A stretch of DNA of 64,000 bases from an uncultured bacterium. Its GTDB lineage: Bacteria > Planctomycetota > SZUA-567 > JAKLDR01. Positions 6,422 through 14,596 of the stretch are shown here, piece after piece. The stretch covers positions 4,787 through 68,786 of the forward strand of contig CBDUSI010000004.1 of NCBI GenBank assembly GCA_965370045.1. The letters run 5' to 3'. A program made the position numbers and the translations under genes. Position 1 is the stretch's first letter. Each line of letters opens with the position of its first letter. A model generated the notes under the pieces. The model did not search any database, was not told the DNA's origin, and saw only the letters and a list, made by a program, of their open reading frames with translations.

Positions 6422-7822
6422 ATGGGTGGTTTCTTCGCGGTAGCGTCCAAGGAAGATTGCGTCGTCGACCTCTTCTACGGAACCGATTACCACTCCCACC
6501 TGGGCACCGTGCGCGGGGGACTGGCGGTCCGGAACGGCGAAGGCATCACCCGCTTTATCCACGACATCACCAACGCGCAGTTCCGCGCAAAGTTCGAGGA
6601 CGACATCGGCAAGATGAACGGCGGGCGCGGTATCGGAGTCATAAGCGACTACGACGACCAGCCGCTGATCATCGGCTCGCATCTGGGGGCCTACGCGATC
6701 GTCACCGTGGGCGTCGTGCAGAACGCCGCGGAGTTGGCCAAGAAGGCCTTCAGCAAGCGCACCACCCATTTCTCGGAGATGAGCGGCGACGAGATCAACC
6801 CCACCGAACTGGTGGCCACGCTCATCAACGGGGAGGCCAGCTTCACCGAAGGCATCGCCGCCGCGCAGGACGCGGTCGAGGGCTCCTGCTCCATGCTGCT
6901 GTTGACCGACGAGGGGATCTACGCGGCGCGCGACCGCCTGGGGCGCACCCCGGTCATTTTGGGCAAGAAGAAGGGCTCCTGGGCGGCCACCATGGAGACC
7001 TGCGCGTTCCCCAACCTGGACTTCGAGGTCGACCGGGATCTGGGCCCCGGTGAGATCGTGCGCATCACCGAGGAGGGCATCGAAAGCGTAAGACCTCCCG
7101 GCGACCGCATGCAGATGTGCTCCTTCCTGTGGGTCTACTACGGATATCCGGCCTCCAGCTACGAGGGCATCAACGTGGAGGCGTCTCGCAACCGCTGCGG
7201 CGCGGCCCTGGCCCGGCGCGACGACGTGGATATCGACATGGTCGCGGGCATCCCCGACTCCGGCACCGGCCACGCCATCGGCTACGCCTCAGAGGCCGGC
7301 GTTCCCTACCGGCGGCCCTTCGTCAAATACACGCCTACCTGGCCGCGCTCCTTCATGCCCCAGGATCAGCGTATACGCGACCTCGTCGCCAAGATGAAGC
7401 TGATCCCCGTACGCGAGCTGGTCAAGGGCTCGCGGATGCTGTTCTGCGAGGACTCCATCGTCCGCGGAACGCAACTGCAAGACACCGTCCAGCGGCTTGT
7501 CGATGCCGGGGCGGAGGAAGTGCACATGCGCCCGGCCTGCCCGCCACTGTGCTACGGGTGCAAGTTCCTGAACTTCTCGCGCTCGCGCAGCATCATGGAC
7601 CTGGCCACCAGGAAGGGCGTCAAAATACTGGAAGGGCAGGCCGAGGAGATCGATCCGGCCTACGCCGACCCGGACAGCGACAAGCACAAGGCCATGGTCG
7701 GGGCCATCTCCGACCGGCTGAAGCTCACCACCCTGCGCTACCAGCGCCTGGACGATCTGGTCGAGGCCATTGGCCTGCCGAAAGAGAAGCTCTGCACCTA
7801 CTGCTGGGACGGCGCTGAGTAG
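6422..7822 (+). CDS. purF: Amidophosphoribosyltransferase-like protein lacking the N-terminal Cys
   Basis: Ntn-type N-domain (YAARDRLGRTP), GIPDSGTGHA, PRPP motif FCEDSIVRGT, Fe-S cysteines (QMCSF, CYGC, CTYCWDG), SD AAGGAGG. Starts MGGFF instead of MCG. Confidence 0.8.
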   Translation: MGGFFAVASKEDCVVDLFYGTDYHSHLGTVRGGLAVRNGEGITRFIHDITNAQFRAKFEDDIGKMNGGRGIGVISDYDDQPLIIGSHLGAYAIVTVGVVQNAAELAKKAFSKRTTHFSEMSGDEINPTELVATLINGEASFTEGIAAAQDAVEGSCSMLLLTDEGIYAARDRLGRTPVILGKKKGSWAATMETCAFPNLDFEVDRDLGPGEIVRITEEGIESVRPPGDRMQMCSFLWVYYGYPASSYEGINVEASRNRCGAALARRDDVDIDMVAGIPDSGTGHAIGYASEAGVPYRRPFVKYTPTWPRSFMPQDQRIRDLVAKMKLIPVRELVKGSRMLFCEDSIVRGTQLQDTVQRLVDAGAEEVHMRPACPPLCYGCKFLNFSRSRSIMDLATRKGVKILEGQAEEIDPAYADPDSDKHKAMVGAISDRLKLTTLRYQRLDDLVEAIGLPKEKLCTYCWDGAE

Positions 7823-8019
7823 GTTCTTTCACCCCTGAACTGATCGGGCGCCGGTCGCGTCCCCGTGGTTACGACGTTGTCGTCATTCGGCTCCCAAGTG
7901 CCGCGCACTAAGCGAAAAGTGCGAAAACCGAGGCATCCGAAAGGCGTTTGACAGCACGTTTGCGGGTCATTAGATTGGTCAGCCGGAGGGGGAGGCGGCA
8001 CGCAGCCGCCGGGAATCGC

Positions 8020-9405
8020 ATGCCTGACGACATTGACATCGGCAAAGTTATCCAAAGCGGGTCCCGCCAGATGGACCTGGGTGATCTGGCTAAGCTGGGT
8101 CACAAGAAGGTCCGGGTTATCGACGAGCGCCGCATCAACGAACTCATTTCCCAGGCCGTCCAGAACGCCATTGAGCGCGAGGGCGCCGACTCCGCCGGAC
8201 GCCTCCGCCGCGAGGCCGCCGAGAAGGCCAAAGCGGAGCTCGAAGCCCAGCTCGCCGAGCATCAGGCCCGTCTCGACGTGGAGTCGCTGGCCAGCAAGGA
8301 GGTCGAGAAGCTCCGCGTCGAGGTCGCCGGGCTGCAGGGCCAGCTGAAGGAAAGCACCGCCGTCATCGAGACGGAGAAGCAGCGCATAGCCGCGGACAGC
8401 CAGAAGGAATTCCAGCGCCTGCTCAAGAGCACCCAGCAGGGGCTGGAGGAGAAGAAGGGCGCCTACGAGAAGGCCCTGCGGGGCATGCTCGAGCGCGCCG
8501 ACCAGTCCATCCCCAAGGAGGAGCTTGCGGACCTGCCGGTGGTCGCCGTCGGCGAGGAGGTCCAGGCCGCACATATGCTGGAAGCCCTCAACCGCCGCGT
8601 CGAGAAGCTGGGCACCCTGCTGGGGACAGCCAAGGCGGAAGTCGCCGGCCGCGACCAGGACATTGCCATGGCCGCCGCCGAGCACCATCGCCAGAAGAAC
8701 GAGATCGAGCGCCTCAAGAAGGAAGGCGAGAATCTGCGCCTGGATCTCCGCGACAAGGAGCGCCAGTTCGACGGCCGCGAGCAGGACCTGGCCGTGGCCG
8801 CCGGCGAGCGGCGCAAGCAGAAGGAAGTCGTCGAGCGCCTCGGCAAGCAGCTCGACGAGATGCGCGACGAGCTGCGCGACAAGGAGCGCCAGTTCGACGC
8901 CCGCGAGCAGGACGTGACCATGGCCGCGCTGGAGCAGCGCCGGCTGCGCGACGAGACCAAGCACCTCCGCGAGGAGGCCGGCAAGGTCGCGGAGCTCTCC
9001 GGCGAAGTGCGGCGGATGACCAGCGAGCGCGAGCTGCTCATGGCGCGCATCGAGGAGTATCGTGATCGCGAGCGCACGGCCAGCGACCAGGTCACGGACA
9101 TGGCTGGCAAGCTGGCCGAGGTGCAGACTGGCGGCACGCAGAGCAGTGGCGAGCTGATGGAAGCCATCAGCGGCATGAAGGGCTCGCTCACCGAAGAGAT
9201 CGCCCGGCAGATATCCTGGGCGCTCTCCGCCCAGAAGACCGGCGCCACCGGGATCGACCCGGGCCTGCAGCTCGAGGCCCTCTTCAGCCAGGAGATCGAA
9301 ACCAACATCGAGTCGGTCAAGATCGAGGAGCGCACGGGCAAGACCCTTACCGATAAATTGGCCAAGCTCCGCGAGGCGCGGAACCAGGGACTGGGCCAGA
9401 GCTAG
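8020..9405 (+). CDS. Long coiled-coil protein with 42-aa internal repeats
   Basis: Rich in E/K/R/L/A heptads, with host-like codon usage. Start taken at ATG 8020 (MPDDIDIG) inside ORF 7948-9405. Confidence 0.8.
   Translation: MPDDIDIGKVIQSGSRQMDLGDLAKLGHKKVRVIDERRINELISQAVQNAIEREGADSAGRLRREAAEKAKAELEAQLAEHQARLDVESLASKEVEKLRVEVAGLQGQLKESTAVIETEKQRIAADSQKEFQRLLKSTQQGLEEKKGAYEKALRGMLERADQSIPKEELADLPVVAVGEEVQAAHMLEALNRRVEKLGTLLGTAKAEVAGRDQDIAMAAAEHHRQKNEIERLKKEGENLRLDLRDKERQFDGREQDLAVAAGERRKQKEVVERLGKQLDEMRDELRDKERQFDAREQDVTMAALEQRRLRDETKHLREEAGKVAELSGEVRRMTSERELLMARIEEYRDRERTASDQVTDMAGKLAEVQTGGTQSSGELMEAISGMKGSLTEEIARQISWALSAQKTGATGIDPGLQLEALFSQEIETNIESVKIEERTGKTLTDKLAKLREARNQGLGQS
8650..8980 (+). 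repeat. 126-nt (42-aa) tandem repeat, about 2.6 copies
   Basis: Units start at 8650, 8776 and 8902 (RDQDIAMAAAE, REQDLAVAAGE, REQDVTMAALE). The first two units end with LRDKERQFD. Confidence 0.85.
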
Positions 9406-10632
9406 ATGGCGCAGGGGAGGACACCGGTGGAAAAGGAAGACCGCCAGGACGTTCAGGAGCAGCCCCCGGAAGTCGAGGACGGGACCCCGGAGAGCAGCGA
9501 GGCGGACGCCGCGGAAGGCGCCGCTTCCTCCGAGCAAGCTGAGGAGGTTACTGCCGTGGAAGAGAAGGCCAAAGAGAAAGTCGCCGCTAAAGCCAAGGAT
9601 GCCCCCAGCAAGGCCTCCGCCGGGGGGGGCGAGGACGAGCTGGCCATGGGCCGGGGGTTGGACATCGGCACCTGCAACCTGGTCAGCGCCGCGCAGCGCA
9701 CCAGCGACGAGACCCTGACCTACCGCTCGCTGCGCAACGCCTTCCTCGACGTGGACATCAACGATTTCACCAAGAAGATGCTCACCAAGCTGGGCGTGCA
9801 GTACGTTATGCACAACCGGCGCATGTACGTGCTGGGCTCGCCGGCCTTCGAGCTGGCCAACATCTTCAACCGCGATACGCGGCGGCCGATGTCCTCCGGG
9901 CTAATCTCCCCCAACGAGGCCGACGCGCTGCCCATCATCCGCCTGCTGATCACCCAGGTGCTGGGCGCGCCGGCCCGCGAGAACGAGCTCTGCTTCTACT
10001 CCATCCCCGGCGAGCCGGTCGACTCGCAGATGAACGTGGTCTATCACCGCGACATCTTCGACGGGTTGCTGCGCAAGCTGGGCTTCCAGCCGCAGCCCAT
10101 GGCCGAGGGTCACGCGCTGGTCTTCGCGGAGCTGGCCGACGACGACTTCACCGGCATCGGCATCTCCTGCGGCGCGGGCATGTTCAACATCTGCGTGGCT
10201 TACAAGACCGTGCCCGCGGTGGTCTTCTCCACCAGCCGGGGCGGCGACTGGGTGGACAACAACGCGGCCATGGTCCTGGGCATGAAGGGCCCCCGGGTCA
10301 CGGCCATCAAGGAGAAGGGCATTGACCTCATGCATCCCAAGAACCGGGAGGAAGAGGCCATCGTCATCTACTACCGGAACCTGATCAACTACACGCTGGT
10401 CAACATCAAGCAGCGCTTCGAGTCCGCCGATGGCGTGCCCACCTTCCCGGACGCGGTGGACATCGTCTGCTCCGGCGGCACCAGCAAGCCCACGGGCTTC
10501 ATTGACCTCTTCACGGAGGAGTTCAAGCGCATCGAGTTCCCGCTGGAGGTCAAGAAGATCCGGCTGGCCGCGGAGCCCCTTAACGCGGTGGCCCAGGGCT
10601 GTCTGGTGGCGGCCATGAGCGGAATGGAGTAG
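9406..10632 (+). CDS. Actin-fold (ASKHA) ATPase, salactin/volactin-like
   Basis: Phosphate-1 GLDIGTCNLV, connect-1 MAEGHA, phosphate-2 GISCGAGMFNI, RGGDWVD, adenosine loop VCSGGTS, connect-2 EPLNAVAQG. The ATG directly abuts the upstream TAG. Alternative start at ATG 9646. Confidence 0.8.
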   Translation: MAQGRTPVEKEDRQDVQEQPPEVEDGTPESSEADAAEGAASSEQAEEVTAVEEKAKEKVAAKAKDAPSKASAGGGEDELAMGRGLDIGTCNLVSAAQRTSDETLTYRSLRNAFLDVDINDFTKKMLTKLGVQYVMHNRRMYVLGSPAFELANIFNRDTRRPMSSGLISPNEADALPIIRLLITQVLGAPARENELCFYSIPGEPVDSQMNVVYHRDIFDGLLRKLGFQPQPMAEGHALVFAELADDDFTGIGISCGAGMFNICVAYKTVPAVVFSTSRGGDWVDNNAAMVLGMKGPRVTAIKEKGIDLMHPKNREEEAIVIYYRNLINYTLVNIKQRFESADGVPTFPDAVDIVCSGGTSKPTGFIDLFTEEFKRIEFPLEVKKIRLAAEPLNAVAQGCLVAAMSGME

Positions 10633-10670
10633 CGCTCGCGGATCTTTCCGCTTTGGATTCAGGGACACAC

Positions 10671-10696
10671 CGGCGGCGGCCAGCGGGCCGCCGCCG
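10671..10696 (+). terminator. Probable terminator hairpin after the actin-like gene
   Basis: Perfect 11-bp stem CGGCGGCGGCC-AGCG-GGCCGCCGCCG followed by cgctttgct. Confidence 0.5.
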
Positions 10697-10789
10697 CGCT
10701 TTGCTCCCCGAATGTCTCTTGCGAAACGGCTCCGTTCGGGCTATCCTCCGGCTTCCAGGACAGAAGCGGTTTTCCGCGGAGAGCGAGGA

Positions 10790-11827
10790 ATGAGCGAGTC
10801 TGAGAGCGCCGCCCCCCTGCGACTGGCCGTCGCCGGTCTGGGCGGGTGGGGCAAGAATGTCCTGCGGGCCTTCTCGGGGGTCTCCGGCGCCGGGGTGGCG
10901 TGCGTGTGCGACGTGAGCTCCAAAGCGTTGGAGGCCGCAACTCGCAACTGCCCGGGGGCGGAGCCCACCGCGAGTTACGACGAGGTGCTGGCGGACCCGG
11001 CCATCGACGCCGTGGTCCTGGCCACACCTGCGCCGACCCACGCGGAGATGGGCGCCAAGGCCCTGTCCGCCGGCAAACACGTCTACGTCGAGAAGCCCAT
11101 GAGCCTGCGGGCCTCCGAGGCCCGCGAACTGGTGTCACTTGCCGGCGAAAAGAACCTTCGGCTGATGGTCGGGCACCTGCTGGAGTATCATCCGGCGGTG
11201 GGCGTCCTCAAGGAACTGGTGAGCGGCGGCGAGATCGGTGATATCCACTACATGTACTGCGAACGGATCAACCTGGGGGTGGTGCGCCGGGACGAGAACG
11301 CGCTGTGGTCGCTGGCCCCTCACGATGTCTCGATTATCTTGTACCTCTTCGGCGCCGAACCGGAAAGCGTCTCCGCGCGTGGCACCTGCTGCCTGCAGGA
11401 GGGCGTGGAGGACGTGGTCTTCACGAACCTGCGCTTCGCCGACGGGCGCATGGCCCAGATTCACAACTCCTGGCTCGATCCCCACAAGAAACGGCGCATG
11501 GTGGTGGTCGGCTCGCGGAAGATGGCGGTCTTCGACGACATGAGCGCCACCGAGAAGATCCGCGTCTACGACAAAGGCGCGGAGGTCAAGCGCGGGGCCA
11601 CCGACGCCATCGAGGCCATCAGCGTGCGCCACGGGGAAATCCGCATCCCGCTGGTCCCTTCCGCCGAGCCCCTGCGCATCGAGGCCCAGCACTTCGTGGA
11701 CTGCGTGCGCGAGGGCCGTACCCCGCGCAGCGACGGCCGCTCCGGCTTGCGGGTGGTCAACGTGCTGGCGGGGGCCACGGAATCCCTGAAGCAGGACGGG
11801 GCCCCGGTGAGGATCGCGGACCTGTGA
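10790..11827 (+). CDS. Gfo/Idh/MocA oxidoreductase (WlbA/WbpB-like)
   Basis: GLGGWG Rossmann motif, HVYVEKPM, MVGHLLEYHP. SD GAGGA before ATG 10790. Adjacent to WlbB- and WlbC-like genes. Confidence 0.85.
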   Translation: MSESESAAPLRLAVAGLGGWGKNVLRAFSGVSGAGVACVCDVSSKALEAATRNCPGAEPTASYDEVLADPAIDAVVLATPAPTHAEMGAKALSAGKHVYVEKPMSLRASEARELVSLAGEKNLRLMVGHLLEYHPAVGVLKELVSGGEIGDIHYMYCERINLGVVRRDENALWSLAPHDVSIILYLFGAEPESVSARGTCCLQEGVEDVVFTNLRFADGRMAQIHNSWLDPHKKRRMVVVGSRKMAVFDDMSATEKIRVYDKGAEVKRGATDAIEAISVRHGEIRIPLVPSAEPLRIEAQHFVDCVREGRTPRSDGRSGLRVVNVLAGATESLKQDGAPVRIADL

Positions 11828-12408
11828 GCGGGAAACCCCCTTTCGTGCACGAATCCAGCTACGTTGACGACGGCGCAGAGGTGGGCAGCGGCACCAAGGT
11901 ATGGCATTTCTCGCACGTCATGGCCGGCGCGAAAGTCGGTGAGCGCTGCGTCATCGGTCAGAACGTGAACATTGGCTCGGGCGCGGTCCTGGGGAGCAAC
12001 GTCAAGGTCCAGAACAACGTCAGCATCTACGATGACGTGGAGATCGAGGACGACGTCTTCTGCGGCCCCTCGATGGTATTCACCAACGTGCTTACCCCCC
12101 GCGCGCACGTGAGCCGCAAGAGCGAATACGGCCGCACGCTGGTGCGCCGCGGGGCGACGCTCGGCGCCAACTGCACTGTGGTCTGCGGCAACCAGATTGG
12201 CCGCTACGCGATGGTCGGCGCCGGCGCGGTGGTCACCAGGGACGTTGCCGATTACGCCCTGGTGGTGGGCAATCCCGCGCGAGGGATCGGCTGGGTCTGC
12301 AATTGCGGCGAGCGCATTGTCTTCGACGCTGGCGCGGCTGCCTGCGCGCGCTGCGGCAAGAAGTACCGCCAGAAGAGCGAGACGGAAATCGAGGAGAACA
12401 ATGGCTGA
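11824..12408 (+). CDS. Hexapeptide-repeat N-acetyltransferase (WlbB/WbpD-like)
   Basis: [56 protein letters not shown] overlap with the upstream gene. Confidence 0.9.
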
Positions 12409-13522
12409 GAGCGCGAGCGGCGTCCCGCTTCTGGACCTCAAGGCCCAGTACGCGACGATCAAAGAGGAAGTCAAGGCCGCCATCGAGGGAGTGCTGGAAA
12501 GCCAGCGTTTCATCGGCGGCCCGGAGATCGAGGGGCTGGAGTCGGAGCTCGCCGGGTACTCCGGCTGCGAGTGCGGAATAGGAGTGACGTCGGGAACCGA
12601 CGCGCTGCTCCTCTCGCTGATGGCTTTGGGCGTGGGGCCCGGTGACGAGGTAATCACCACGCCCTTCACGTTCTTCGCGACCGCGGGCTGCGTCTCCCGC
12701 CTGGGGGCCAAGCCGGTTTTCGTGGACATCGAGCCGGGCGGGTTCAACATCGATCCGGCCAAAGTCGAAGCGGCGGTCACTGACAGGACCAAGGCGATCA
12801 TCCCCGTGCACCTCTTCGGCCAGTGCGCGGAGATGGACCCCATACTGGAGATTGCGAAGAAGCGCAAGTTCCTGGTGATCGAGGACGCCGCCCAGGCCAT
12901 CGGCTCGGAGTACAAGGGCCGGCGCGCCGGAGCCATGGGCACCGTCGGCTGCTTCAGCTTCTTTCCCTCCAAGAACCTGGGTGGGTTCGGCGACGGGGGC
13001 ATGATCACCACCAACGACCAGGAGCTTGCCGCGAAGCTCAAGATGCTCCGCAATCACGGCGCGAAACCCAAGTACTACCACGCGCTGGTCGGCGGGAACT
13101 TCAGGCTGGACGCCATCCAGGCCGCGATCCTGCGCGTGAAGCTCAAGCACCTCGACGACTGGAGCGCCGCACGACAGCGGAACGCCGCGCGTTACCGCGA
13201 GCTCTTCGCGGGCATGGATGCAGTCAAGTGCCCCGCCGAGCTTCCCGAACGGCGGCACATATATAACCAGTTCTCGATCCGCGTCCCGCGCCGCGACGAG
13301 CTTCGGGCCTATCTCGCCGAAAGGAAGATAGGCTGCGAGATCTACTACCCGGTGCCGCTACACGTTCAGGAGTGCTTCGCGGACCTGGGCTACGCAAAGG
13401 GCGACATGCCCGAGAGCGAGCGGGCCGCCGCCGAAGTCCTGGCCCTGCCGGTCTATCCGGAGTTGACCGGGGAGCAACAGGGCGTGGTGGTCGACGCGAT
13501 TGCTGGATTTCTGAGCCACTAA
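12401..13522 (+). CDS. DegT/DnrJ/EryC1/StrS aminotransferase (WlbC/WbpE-like)
   Basis: [51 protein letters not shown]. Confidence 0.92.
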
Positions 13523-13549: not shown

Positions 13550-14596
13550 ATGAAGGGATGGCAGATAGCACTGCTGGTCGTGGGCTGTTCGGCGCTGGCC
13601 GGCACGGGCGTCTATTTCGCGGTCAGGAAAGACCCAGCCGCGGAGCCGCGCACCGAATCCGACGCCAAGGGCAATGGGGAAGCCTCCACCGCGAAGACGC
13701 CCAAGGGCTCCCCGCCCGCGCCGGTGCTTACCGGCAGGAAGGGCAAGACTTACCGCCACGTGGCCGGGTTCACGTTCTGGTACCCGGACGGGTGGACGGT
13801 CAAGGAGAATGGCGACGCCCTGGAGATCGCCCCGGTTGCCGGAAGGAAGACGGCCGAGGGCCCGGCGATGGTCTACGCCATCATCGGCGACAGCGTTGCC
13901 GGCCAGGGCATCAGCACGGGCGCCGACCCGCGCGTCGCCGCCTACCTGGACAAGGCGATGTTCCAGATTTCCAGAGCAACGCAATGCACGCTGAGCCGCG
14001 GCCGGGGCACCACCACCGTGAAGATGAGTTCCGGGCAGGGCGCCCTGTACGAGTGGAACGGGACTGATCATAAGCGGCAGGCGGTCCAGGTGCGGGCCTA
14101 CGCCTGCGTCCTGAAGGGCTGGGGAATCGCCCTGCTGGCTATTGGCCGCAAGGCAGGGGTGGAGGCCGCTGACCCGCGGACCCGCAAGATATTTGCCTCC
14201 TTCAACGTCGGTGCGGGACAGAAGGACGCCGCGCTGGCGGGTTCATGGCGGCTGCGCTCCACGTATTCGCTGCGCAACGAGTCGCCCTTCGAAACCGACT
14301 GGTCACGGGCGCAAATGGTTTCGGAATCGCAGAGCTACCTGCGCTTCAACGCAGACGGCACCTGGAAGCGCCTCGACAAGCACCACATGCTGGTCGGCGC
14401 CGGCGGGGTCTGGCTCGAGAGCAAGGAAGACAAGACCAGCGAAGGCACCTGGAACGCCGGGGACGGGACGCTGTTCATGTTGTGGAAGGACGGCTCTTGG
14501 AACGACTTCAAGTATCGCGTTGGCGGCGCGGGTGCCGCTCGCCGCCTGCGCCTGGTATCCGGCAAGCGCGGGGAAGTCTGGGCCCCGGCGAAGTAG
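13550..14596 (+). CDS. Membrane-anchored hypothetical protein (beta-rich; possible PsbP-like and lipocalin-like domains)
   Basis: N-terminal TM segment, FTFWYPDGWTVKE, C-terminal GSWRL...LRFNADGTW...EGTWNA pattern. Confidence 0.65.
   Translation: MKGWQIALLVVGCSALAGTGVYFAVRKDPAAEPRTESDAKGNGEASTAKTPKGSPPAPVLTGRKGKTYRHVAGFTFWYPDGWTVKENGDALEIAPVAGRKTAEGPAMVYAIIGDSVAGQGISTGADPRVAAYLDKAMFQISRATQCTLSRGRGTTTVKMSSGQGALYEWNGTDHKRQAVQVRAYACVLKGWGIALLAIGRKAGVEAADPRTRKIFASFNVGAGQKDAALAGSWRLRSTYSLRNESPFETDWSRAQMVSESQSYLRFNADGTWKRLDKHHMLVGAGGVWLESKEDKTSEGTWNAGDGTLFMLWKDGSWNDFKYRVGGAGAARRLRLVSGKRGEVWAPAK

What the first reader, a model, noticed from the sequence alone, without database searches (positions are those of the whole stretch)
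9406..10632. Salactin/volactin-like actin homolog in a bacterium
Seen: all five actin-fold ATPase motifs are present (GLDIGT, AEG, ISCGAG, SGGTS, EPLNAVAQG). The internal segments LANIFNRDTRRPM, FYSIPGEPVD, ELADDDFTGIGIS and RGGDWVD differ from MreB, FtsA and DnaK. From memory they match the haloarchaeal salactin/volactin pattern, a dynamic filament-forming actin linked to cell shape or DNA handling. No mreC/mreD or par genes flank it. Inference: this is an uncharacterised cytoskeletal actin in a planctomycete-like bacterium.
Basis: partly seen in the sequence, partly recalled or inferred. Interest (0 to 1): 0.8.

Follow-up and report, generated by a model that had tools for sequence, protein, structure and literature searches.

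The report
Bacterial volactin-type actin with partner
This planctomycete gene encodes a bacterial member of the "volactin" family of actin-like filament proteins, studied so far only in salt-loving archaea. It sits in a two-gene unit with an undescribed coiled-coil partner that accompanies it in almost every related bacterium.

Summary

It is a full-length member of Pfam PF25216 "Volactin" (295.5 bits against a cut-off of 35; 321/321 positions). No other Pfam family matches at E<=1. It is 41% identical to Haloferax volcanii volactin itself (E 4e-97).

Its predicted fold is closest to the filament formers MamK and MreB.

Published trees place salactin next to MamK as a separate clade.

The family is not rare in bacteria:
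- 114 of 301 sampled Planctomycetota genomes carry it.
- NCBI already names some planctomycete copies "volactin".
- Two huge phages encode homologues.

It encodes a coiled-coil protein with a conserved N-terminal module and a conserved C-terminal helix. This protein is linked to the actin in all 80 related bacterial loci.

Eleven natural fusions keep the N-module but drop the C-module. This suggests that the C-terminal helix is the actin-docking element.

Haloarchaea instead have a CdpA-like membrane protein upstream.

The genome also has a canonical MreB, and no FtsZ was detected.

Verdict: a real, experimentally uncharacterised bacterial branch of a known actin family, with a different adaptor. 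Cellular role unknown.

The parts
7948..7976 (+). Sigma-70-like promoter (TTGACA, 17 nt spacer, TAGATT) in front of the two-gene unit
   Evidence: The only promoter-like site in 7700-10900, matching 10 of 12 positions; 0.2 expected from shuffles. The -35 and most of the -10 are conserved in the nearest relative L007, although the gene upstream of it differs.
7977..8019 (+). Conserved leader with a short GC hairpin (GGCGGC 7994-7999 / GCCGCC 8005-8010) before the partner's ATG
   Evidence: Nearly identical between the window and L007, while sequence further upstream diverges. Read directly from the sequence.
8020..9405 (+). Partner gene: 461-aa coiled-coil protein. Its stop TAG (9403-9405) directly abuts the actin ATG.
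   Evidence: No Pfam family; only weak SMC-like coiled-coil matches in NCBIfam. The AF2 model is almost all long helices: 36-163, 183-253, 261-370, 376-406. A homologue lies directly upstream of the actin in 76 of 80 GTDB loci. The start at ATG 8020, rather than TTG 7948, follows from the promoter position and from homologues whose N-module begins at residue 4.
8029..8181 (+). Partner N-module (residues 4-54). Family consensus: ..KVIEKSTSKVTLDELAKKGFKKVKVLDEAAIRELIDEAVE..
   Evidence: Conserved across loci (jackhmmer hits in 80 loci; HMM match to residues 4-54, E 1.6e-21). Low AF2 confidence for residues 1-35, so it probably orders only on binding or dimerisation.
8642..8927 (+). 126-nt (42-aa) tandem repeat, 2.3 copies, in the variable coiled-coil middle of the partner
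   Evidence: Tandem Repeats Finder: period 126, 77% matches, score 316. The middle region varies in length between homologues (partners of about 210-700 aa).
9253..9390 (+). Partner C-module (residues 412-457), ending in a short helix ..LTDKLAKLREARNQ..; proposed actin-docking element
   Evidence: HMM match E 3.2e-17. Helix 443-456 in the AF2 model. Present in unfused partners but absent from all 11 natural partner-actin fusions.
9406..10632 (+). Volactin-family actin-like ATPase gene (408 aa)
   Evidence: PF25216, 295.5 bits, full length. 41% identity to H. volcanii volactin. AF2 core pLDDT about 80-95. Top Foldseek hits are MamK, MreB, BeeR and actin.
9406..9645 (+). Acidic, disordered N-terminal tail of the actin (residues 1-80; 22 D+E against 9 K+R; pI 4.2)
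   Evidence: pLDDT below 50 for residues 1-76. Composition. Tails of variable length occur in most homologues. The proximal half is conserved with L007, where the Met81 codon is CTG, so translation there must start upstream.
9655..9672 (+). Phosphate-1 motif GLDIGT (residues 84-89)
   Evidence: G84, D86, G88 and T89 are invariant in 37 homologues and aligned with volactin GLDVGT.
10162..10179 (+). Phosphate-2 motif ISCGAG (residues 253-258), with Ser where MreB and MamK have Asp
   Evidence: I253, S254, G256 and G258 are invariant. Volactin has VSFGAG. The same D-to-S change is reported as the hallmark of Mad28 (PMC10653835).
10471..10485 (+). Adenosine-binding motif SGGTS (residues 356-360)
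   Evidence: G357 and G358 are invariant and aligned with volactin TGGTS.
10638..10698 (+). Two terminator-like hairpins after the actin stop: 10638-10651 with a T-rich tail, and a 12-bp GC stem at 10670-10698
   Evidence: Terminator scan. RNA fold -45.2 kcal/mol, z -3.7, with 0 of 200 shuffles as stable.

Best explanation
ORF 9406-10632 encodes a bacterial member of the volactin family of actin-like ATPases.

Shown:
- Family membership, an intact nucleotide-binding motif set and an actin fold closest to filament-forming MamK and MreB.
- A compact two-gene unit (promoter-like site, partner gene, actin gene starting at the partner's stop codon, terminator-like hairpins).
- Near-universal linkage of the same partner family to this actin in bacteria.

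Inferred:
- The protein polymerises with ATP into dynamic cytoplasmic filaments, as its 41%-identical archaeal relative does in vivo.
- The coiled-coil partner is its adaptor. The short C-terminal helix docks on the actin, in the manner in which ParR's C-terminal helix docks on ParM. The long, length-variable coiled coil acts as a spacer or dimeriser. The conserved N-module binds the structure to be positioned or anchored (membrane site, DNA or another complex).
- The acidic N-terminal tail of the actin probably modulates assembly or partner binding.

The genome also encodes a canonical MreB and has no detectable FtsZ. This is therefore a second, separate actin system. Its cellular role (shape, division or budding, or positioning of DNA or another cargo) is unknown.
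For: Family and fold:
- PF25216, E 7.7e-88, 321/321 positions, and no other Pfam hit at E<=1.
- 41% identity, E 4e-97, to H. volcanii volactin, which forms dynamic filaments in vivo (PMC10869688).
- AF2 model with a confident core. The top PDB fold matches are MamK filament 5ljv (TM 0.72 on the target), MreB, BeeR and F-actin.
- The motif residues are invariant across 37 homologues.

Partner linkage:
- A homologue with the N- and C-modules lies directly upstream in 76 of 80 GTDB loci. One locus has a fusion, and three have a C-module ORF after tandem actins. The same pair occurs in metagenome loci L002-L006 and L087.
- Ten 50%-identity clusters plus L058 are natural fusions of N-module, linker and actin. 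None retains the C-module.

Operon structure and genome background:
- Stop TAG 9403-9405 is followed at once by ATG 9406. The promoter-like site is conserved in L007. Hairpins follow the actin gene.
- One copy in the own genome, a canonical MreB elsewhere and no tubulin/FtsZ domain found.

Archaeal parallel:
- Archaeal volactin genes also have a conserved upstream gene built as anchor, linker and small C-terminal domain (CdpA-like; PMC12126565).
Against: - No experiment exists for any member of the bacterial clade that I could find. Polymerisation is extrapolated from a 41%-identical archaeal protein and from fold similarity.
- EutJ, which is not known as a filament former, also appears among the fold hits (rank 12).
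- The adaptor model rests on gene linkage and fusion patterns only. No complex was modelled, because only single chains can be folded here.
- The partner's N- and C-modules have low AF2 confidence on their own.
- The similarity between the bacterial C-module and the archaeal CdpA-like tails is weak: 5.3-5.6 bits, with 1 of 900 shuffles as high, and one of the three tails does not score.
- The genome is only 88% complete, so absence of FtsZ is not proven.
Confidence: 0.7

Rival explanations
1. The pair is a chromosomal ParMRC-like (type II) DNA-segregation system. The partner would be a ParR-like DNA-binding adaptor whose N-module binds a centromere-like site and whose C-terminal helix captures filament ends. 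The filaments would push or pull DNA.
For: - The architecture (actin plus an adaptor with a terminal docking helix) parallels ParM/ParR. This comparison is from established knowledge, not tested here.
- The N-module has a basic strand followed by a helix (KKVKVL-DEAAIRELI), which loosely resembles a ribbon-helix start.
- Some longer paralogues carry a weak ParB-HTH head (P0127, E 3e-4, below cut-off).
- An Omnitrophota locus has a ParA-like gene next to the module.
- Salactin, another haloarchaeal actin, aids DNA partitioning (PMC10746226).
Against: - No direct or inverted repeat array resembling a centromere lies upstream of the operon.
- The N-module has no Pfam match and no helix-turn-helix or canonical ribbon-helix-helix layout. 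AF2 runs the helix straight into the coiled coil.
- The adaptor is upstream of the actin, unlike parMR, alfAB and alp7AR.
- No par genes are nearby in this window.
Confidence: 0.15
2. It is a morphogenetic or division cytoskeleton: filaments tethered to the envelope through the partner shape the cell or take part in FtsZ-independent division or budding. This would be functionally analogous to volactin in Haloferax disk formation.
For: - Volactin affects the rod-to-disk transition, and its filaments touch the membrane by their tips (PMC10869688).
- Its neighbour HVO_2016 is a CdpA-like membrane protein, and CdpA anchors the archaeal division ring (PMC12126565).
- No FtsZ was detected in this genome.
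- The family is in 38% of sampled Planctomycetota genomes.
Against: - The bacterial partner has no predicted membrane segment and no recognisable membrane-targeting motif.
- The genome keeps MreB for shape.
- The family is missing from most families of the same class (0 of about 50 genomes in f2, f3, f102 and f103). It therefore cannot be a universal planctomycete division factor.
Confidence: 0.25
3. It is a non-polymerising ASKHA ATPase (chaperone-like as in EutJ or Hsp70, or a kinase or activase), and the coiled-coil neighbour is its substrate or co-chaperone.
For: EutJ (3h1q) is among the fold hits (E 3.7e-12). The actin fold alone does not prove polymerisation.
Against: - No Pfam match to HSP70, BcrAD_BadFG, ROK, FGGY or sugar-kinase families even at E<=1.
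- The best fold hits are filament formers.
- The nearest characterised relative forms filaments in vivo.
- Fusion to coiled-coil stalks, ParB-like heads and long tails is typical of cytoskeletal adaptors, not of enzymes.
Confidence: 0.07
4. It is an orthologue of salactin rather than of volactin.
For: Like salactin, it has a charged, disordered N-terminal tail (PMC10746226).
Against: - Salactin is reported as the sister of MamK, with 23% identity to MamK.
- Our protein has no phmmer hit to any MamK or MreB chain at E<=10, and only 18-20% identity in structural alignments.
- It matches the volactin model end to end.
- Tails of this kind vary widely within the bacterial clade.
Confidence: 0.03

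Closest known systems
Volactin (VolA, HVO_2015) of Haloferax volcanii; Pfam PF25216
   Same: - Same Pfam family, matched end to end.
- 41% identity, collinear, with only small gaps.
- Shared family signatures: Ser in phosphate-2 (ISCGAG / VSFGAG), RGGDW(V/I)D and FxxANIFxxxTRRPM.
- A conserved gene directly upstream encoding a protein with a long linker and a small C-terminal domain.
   Different: - Bacterial host that also has MreB.
- An 80-residue acidic N-terminal tail, which volactin lacks (it starts at our Met81).
- The upstream partner is a soluble coiled-coil protein, not a four-TM CdpA-like membrane protein.
- No CetZ neighbour.
- The name 'disk-shape morphogenesis' cannot be transferred to this protein.
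Mad28 (second actin-like protein of deep-branching magnetotactic bacteria)
   Same: - Published hallmarks match: phosphate-2 SxGxG instead of DxGxG, and connect-1 Glu without the following Pro (PMC10653835). Ours has ISCGAG and AEG.
- Works alongside coiled-coil Mad proteins.
- Forms filaments in vitro and in E. coli.
- Has an N-terminal extension.
   Different: - Membership of one family could not be tested, because no Mad28 sequence was obtainable here.
- This window has no magnetosome genes.
- Mad28 sits inside magnetosome gene clusters.
MamK and MreB
   Same: Best structural matches (MamK filament 5ljv, MreB 4czi/1jcf). Same four-subdomain actin fold without the large insertions of FtsA or Hsp70.
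   Different: - No sequence-level match (phmmer against PDB finds nothing; no PF06723 hit at E<=1).
- Asp to Ser in phosphate-2.
- No mreCD, rodZ or magnetosome context.
- The genome has its own canonical MreB.
ParM/ParR (type II plasmid partition)
   Same: Two-gene actin-plus-adaptor logic. The proposed docking of a short terminal helix of the adaptor on the actin resembles ParR-ParM.
   Different: - No sequence relation.
- Chromosomal location.
- The adaptor is encoded upstream and is a long coiled coil.
- No centromere-like repeats were found.
Salactin (Halobacterium salinarum) and saltatorellin (Saltatorellus)
   Same: Recently named prokaryotic actins outside the classic families. Salactin has a charged, disordered N-terminal tail. 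Saltatorellin is from the PVC-related Saltatorellota, which also keep MreB.
   Different: Both are described as MamK-like (PMC10746226; bioRxiv 10.1101/817700). Our protein is not MamK-like at the sequence level. No direct comparison was possible.

Membership tests
Volactin family (Pfam PF25216) | Score above the curated gathering cut-off (35 bits) over the whole model | tested here: met
   295.5 bits, E 7.7e-88, residues 81-403 on profile 1-321/321. Same result on the genome copy.
Volactin family (Pfam PF25216) | Direct similarity to the founding protein, H. volcanii VolA | tested here: met
   BLASTP against P0338 (named volactin [Haloferax volcanii] by NCBI): 41% identity over 329 residues, E 4e-97.
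Volactin family (Pfam PF25216) | Forms dynamic filaments in vivo | not testable with these tools
   Shown only for VolA-msfGFP in H. volcanii (PMC10869688).
Volactin family (Pfam PF25216) | Adjacent CdpA-like (DUF7139/CdpA_N) membrane protein, as in haloarchaea | tested here: not met
   All four archaeal loci have it. The window and 80 bacterial loci instead have a soluble coiled-coil partner with no Pfam match. This is a context feature, not part of the Pfam definition.
Volactin family (Pfam PF25216) | Role in disk-shape morphogenesis | not testable with these tools
   Phenotype known only in Haloferax. No basis to transfer it.
Salactin | Groups with H. salinarum salactin, sister to MamK | not tested
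   The salactin sequence could not be fetched. Indirect evidence is against: no MamK or MreB hit by phmmer at E<=10, whereas salactin is 23% identical to MamK.
MreB (PF06723) | Match to the MreB_Mbl model, with mreCD/rodZ context | tested here: not met
   No PF06723 hit at E<=1. The genome's true MreB is elsewhere (G000:C14:26926-27909, E 6.6e-141). The neighbours are unrelated.
MamK | Sequence membership and a magnetosome gene cluster | tested here: not met
   Structural similarity only (5ljv, 20% identity). No phmmer hit. No magnetosome genes among the neighbours.
Mad28 | Phosphate-2 SxGxG and connect-1 xExx signature (PMC10653835) | tested here: met
   ISCGAG and AEG are in the sequence. 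This is a motif match only.
Mad28 | Sequence clustering with Mad28 of RS-1, BW-1 or Mbav, and location in a magnetosome island | not tested
   No Mad28 sequence was available. The window has no magnetosome genes. The Omnitrophota relative examined shows none in 30 kb.
ParM / type II partition | Downstream ParR-type adaptor and an upstream centromere repeat array | tested here: not met
   The adaptor-like gene is upstream. No repeat family lies in 7800-8060.
FtsA / Hsp70 / sugar-kinase ASKHA enzymes | Match to the respective Pfam models | tested here: not met
   Only PF25216 is reported at E<=1. NCBIfam gives none.

The most novel reading that the evidence does not exclude
The partner-plus-volactin pair is an ancient, self-contained cytomotive module of Planctomycetota and neighbouring phyla, with relatives in huge phages. 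A dedicated adaptor family captures the filament through a short basic C-terminal helix. The haloarchaeal CdpA-like neighbour of volactin uses the same docking mode. In FtsZ-less planctomycetes the module would position or anchor a major cellular structure (division or budding site, nucleoid or endomembrane). This would be the first adaptor-coupled actin system shared between Bacteria and Archaea.
Probability: 0.25. Interest if true: 0.8.

Novelty: new variant of a known kind. Interest (0 to 1): 0.55.

Why it matters
Planctomycetes divide and shape themselves without FtsZ, and how they do so is an open question. A second actin system, present in more than a third of sampled genomes of the phylum and always coupled to the same undescribed coiled-coil protein, is a concrete candidate. 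It occurs in complete single-contig genomes, which are probably from cultured strains, so it may be genetically testable. It also ties a newly described archaeal cytoskeletal protein to a large bacterial clade and to huge phages. [quoted passage not shown] On the sober side, the homology is already captured by Pfam and by NCBI's naming, so the actin alone is a new member of a known family.

Tried and rejected
- phmmer against all PDB sequences: only a chance hit to Timeless (E 0.07). No actin was found, so sequence search alone fails to link the protein to solved actins.
- NCBIfam: no family for the actin.
- Salactin comparison: the sequence is not retrievable. The supplement holds figures only.
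- Mad28 comparison: the supplements of PMC10653835 hold no sequences. I examined 30 kb around the Omnitrophota homologues (G347:C11) for magnetosome genes. I found ParA, FeoB and two-component genes but no obvious mam genes, so the Mad28 link stays a motif-level lead.
- Centromere-like repeats upstream of the operon: none.
- Internal start at Met81, which would give a tail-less isoform (suggested by earlier notes for long-tailed relatives): the Met aligns with volactin's Met1, and a GAGG lies 13 nt upstream. However, the codon is CTG in the nearest relative and the position is variable in the alignment. Not supported for this gene.
- Bacterial C-module HMM against archaeal CdpA-like tails: 5.3-5.6 bits in two of three, with 1 of 900 shuffles as high. 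Suggestive only.
- Word-based search with the partner's N-module: only 10 close hits, all 'hypothetical protein'. The tool is too insensitive for this short module; local jackhmmer on the fetched loci worked instead.
- Taxonomic naming of the roughly 80 intermediate representative sequences in the tree failed, because the cluster look-ups carry almost no names. The direction of any transfer between domains cannot be stated.
Full report
**1. The observation**

The window has an ORF at 9406-10632 on the + strand (408 aa, ATG start). In an alignment with 36 homologues the motif residues are invariant: G84, D86, G88 and T89 (phosphate 1); E234 and H236 (connect 1); I253, S254, G256 and G258 (phosphate 2); G357 and G358 (adenosine); G398 (connect 2). 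The flanking genes are unrelated housekeeping genes and include no mreC/mreD or par genes. Upstream lie a PabB-like gene, a class IV aminotransferase, a HAD hydrolase, SmpB and a PurF-like gene. Downstream lie a GFO/IDH/MocA oxidoreductase, a hexapeptide acyltransferase and a DegT aminotransferase.

**2. What the protein is**

hmmscan against Pfam returns one family at E<=1: PF25216 "Volactin". The match has E 7.7e-88 and 295.5 bits against a cut-off of 35, with residues 81-403 covering profile positions 1-321 of 321. NCBIfam has no model for it. phmmer against all PDB sequences finds no actin at all. The protein is therefore well separated from MreB, MamK, ParM, FtsA and Hsp70 at the sequence level.

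I recovered the founding member of the family through a haloarchaeal homologue. P0338 is named [quoted passage not shown]. The window protein is 41% identical to it over 329 collinear residues (E 4e-97). Our Met81 aligns with volactin's Met1.

An AlphaFold2 model built on the 37-sequence alignment has a confident core (blocks of pLDDT 80-96 from residue 77) and a disordered tail over residues 1-76. Its best matches among solved structures are the MamK filament (5ljv, TM 0.72 on the target), MreB, BeeR and eukaryotic F-actin. EutJ appears lower in the list.

Volactin forms dynamic filaments in vivo and affects the rod-to-disk transition of Haloferax (PMC10869688).

Salactin should be kept apart. 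Its authors place it beside MamK at 23% identity, as a clade distinct from Mad28, MreB and the rest (PMC10746226). [quoted passage not shown] I could not fetch the salactin sequence for a direct test.

**3. Distribution**

- The word-indexed protein search found 998 relatives. The best 120 all carry PF25216, and almost all that have a name come from Planctomycetota MAGs. A few are already named volactin by NCBI.
- The exhaustive search of 50%-identity representatives found 370 clusters at E<=1e-30.
- In whole genomes the family is over the cut-off in 114 of 301 sampled Planctomycetota genomes, including complete single-contig genomes.
- Within the window's own class it is patchy. It is present in families f1 (4/4), f100 (2/2) and f101 (1/1). 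It is absent from f2, f3, f102 and f103.
- The own genome has one copy.
- Homologues at about 40% identity lie on haloarchaeal megaplasmids.
- Homologues at 43% and 33% identity lie in two uncultured huge phages of 485 and 595 kb.

A maximum-likelihood tree of 110 sequences gives a well-supported planctomycete clade (SH-aLRT 99) that contains the window protein. It also gives a separate haloarchaeal clade (support 100). Many unnamed lineages lie between them. The MreB root branch is very long, so polarity cannot be read from this tree.

**4. The surroundings: a two-gene unit**

The ORF directly upstream ends with TAG at 9403-9405, and the actin's ATG follows at 9406. Its likely start is ATG 8020, giving 461 aa. 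Two observations support this start. A sigma-70-like site (TTGACA, 17 nt, TAGATT) lies at 7948-7976. It is the only such site in 3.2 kb, with 0.2 expected by chance. This site and the leader are conserved in the nearest relative L007, although the gene upstream of it is different. After the actin stop there are two hairpins. One has a T-rich tail, and the other is a 12-bp GC stem. The fold has a z-score of -3.7.

The upstream protein has no Pfam family. It contains a 42-aa repeat in 2.3 copies. It is predicted to be almost entirely long helices, with a poorly ordered first 35 residues and a short terminal helix at 443-456.

Comparison with the genes upstream of two distant homologues showed a conserved N-terminal module of about 50 residues and a C-terminal module of about 45 residues. 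These flank a middle of variable length.

Iterated profile searches over all ORFs of the fetched loci then gave these results for the 80 GTDB loci:
- The partner is directly upstream of the actin in 76 loci.
- It is fused to the actin in one locus (L058).
- It is represented by a C-module ORF after two tandem actins in the three loci labelled Omnitrophota.

It is also present in the metagenome loci L002-L006 and L087/L088. It is absent from the four archaeal loci.

**5. Natural fusions**

Among the representative sequences, ten clusters are natural fusions of the N-module, a linker and the actin domain. None of these, nor L058, retains the C-module. Nearly all unfused partners have it. The simplest reading is that the C-module attaches the partner to the actin, so a covalent link makes it dispensable. 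The N-module would then be the business end. This is inference from gene architecture; no complex could be modelled here.

**6. The archaeal counterpart**

In H. volcanii and on three haloarchaeal megaplasmids the gene upstream of volactin encodes a CdpA_N/DUF7139 protein. It has membrane segments, an acidic linker and a small conserved C-terminal region. The CdpA paper notes this adjacency (HVO_2016 next to HVO_2015) and reports volactin as enriched in CdpA pull-downs (p = 0.06) (PMC12126565).

Both domains therefore pair the actin with an upstream protein of the type "head - long linker - small tail", but the heads are unrelated. The bacterial C-module profile scores 5.3-5.6 bits on two of the three archaeal tails. 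Only 1 of 900 composition-preserving shuffles scores as high, and the third tail does not score. I treat this as a lead only.

**7. Genome background**

The genome has a canonical MreB on another contig (E 6.6e-141). It has no detectable tubulin/FtsZ domain, but it is only 88% complete. The FtsA-domain model hits MreB itself and other actin-fold proteins, with no clear FtsA. The volactin-type protein is thus an additional actin system.

**8. The N-terminal tail**

Residues 1-80 are acidic (pI 4.2) and disordered. Tails of very different lengths occur across the clade. The proximal half is conserved with L007. There the codon matching Met81 is CTG, so translation must begin upstream. I therefore accept the long form and find no support here for a conserved internal start.

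**9. Literature**

Searches for volactin, salactin, planctomycete actin homologues, MamK-like proteins and actin-like plus coiled-coil proteins found no paper describing this bacterial clade or its partner. The related items are:
- Saltatorellin, a MamK-like actin of Saltatorellota that forms filaments in E. coli (bioRxiv 10.1101/817700).
- The lokiactin-like protein of 'Ca. Uabimicrobium', which is a different family.
- Mad28 of deep-branching magnetotactic bacteria.

Mad28 is reported to have Ser instead of Asp in phosphate 2 and Glu without Pro in connect 1. It polymerises in vitro and works with coiled-coil Mad proteins (PMC10653835, PMC12748827, PMC12713370). The window protein has both motif signatures. 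I could not obtain a Mad28 sequence to test whether Mad28 belongs to PF25216.

**10. Earlier notes of this scan**

Notes from other windows describe the same module in at least 40 genomes. I used them only as leads. I re-derived the following independently:
- family membership;
- the partner linkage;
- the fusions;
- the phage homologues;
- the CdpA-like archaeal neighbour.

The Mad28 link and the shared docking helix remain untested or weak.

**11. Verdict**

The actin is a new member of a known, named family. The bacterial system differs from the archaeal one in three ways: a soluble coiled-coil adaptor, an acidic tail and coexistence with MreB. It has not been studied experimentally, so I class it as a new variant of a known kind. 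Filament formation is likely (about 0.75), the adaptor model is plausible (about 0.55) and the cellular role is open.

Noticed in passing
L015, L016, L036, L042, L054, L061, L062, L065-L067, L069, L070, L078-L080, L084 and others (20 of 80 loci): A second, longer volactin-type paralogue (about 470-930 aa) lies directly downstream of the first actin. The window's genome has only the single copy.
   Followed up: partly
P0176, P0188, P0245 (about 700-aa family members): The actin domain is split by an intein (Intein_splicing plus an HNH or LAGLIDADG endonuclease) inserted right after the phosphate-2 motif, at about profile position 180.
   Followed up: partly
P0127 and P0136: Unusual fusions of the volactin domain. 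P0127 has a weak ParB-HTH-like head (E 3e-4, below cut-off). P0136 (1160 aa) carries Wzz/GNVR and a ParA/MinD-like ATPase, resembling a BY-kinase module.
   Followed up: no
phage records LR745208.1:337426-338391 and LR756511.1:548798-549799: Two uncultured huge phages (485 and 595 kb) encode full-length homologues, at 43% and 33% identity to the window protein's core.
   Followed up: partly
G347:C11:135327-140211 (L097/L098; Omnitrophota MAG UBA10174): Variant layout on one strand: a ParA-like ATPase, a 292-aa ORF, two tandem volactin-type actins, then a 195-aa ORF with the partner's C-module. No obvious magnetosome genes within 30 kb.
   Followed up: partly
L095/L096 5744-6928 (H. volcanii chromosome): A CetZ tubulin-family gene lies about 700 nt downstream of volactin. 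The volactin gene there sits between a CdpA-like gene and a CetZ gene.
   Followed up: no
window 6422-7822: A PurF-like amidophosphoribosyltransferase homologue with only weak GATase_7 and Pribosyltran matches. Another first-stage note says that it lacks the N-terminal catalytic Cys.
   Followed up: no
window 10712-13522: Three consecutive genes (GFO/IDH/MocA oxidoreductase, hexapeptide acyltransferase, DegT aminotransferase) look like a WbpB/D/E-type pathway for an acetamido sugar nucleotide. They are not conserved next to the actin in other loci.
   Followed up: no
window 13550-14596: A 348-aa ORF with an N-terminal hydrophobic segment and no Pfam match.
   Followed up: no
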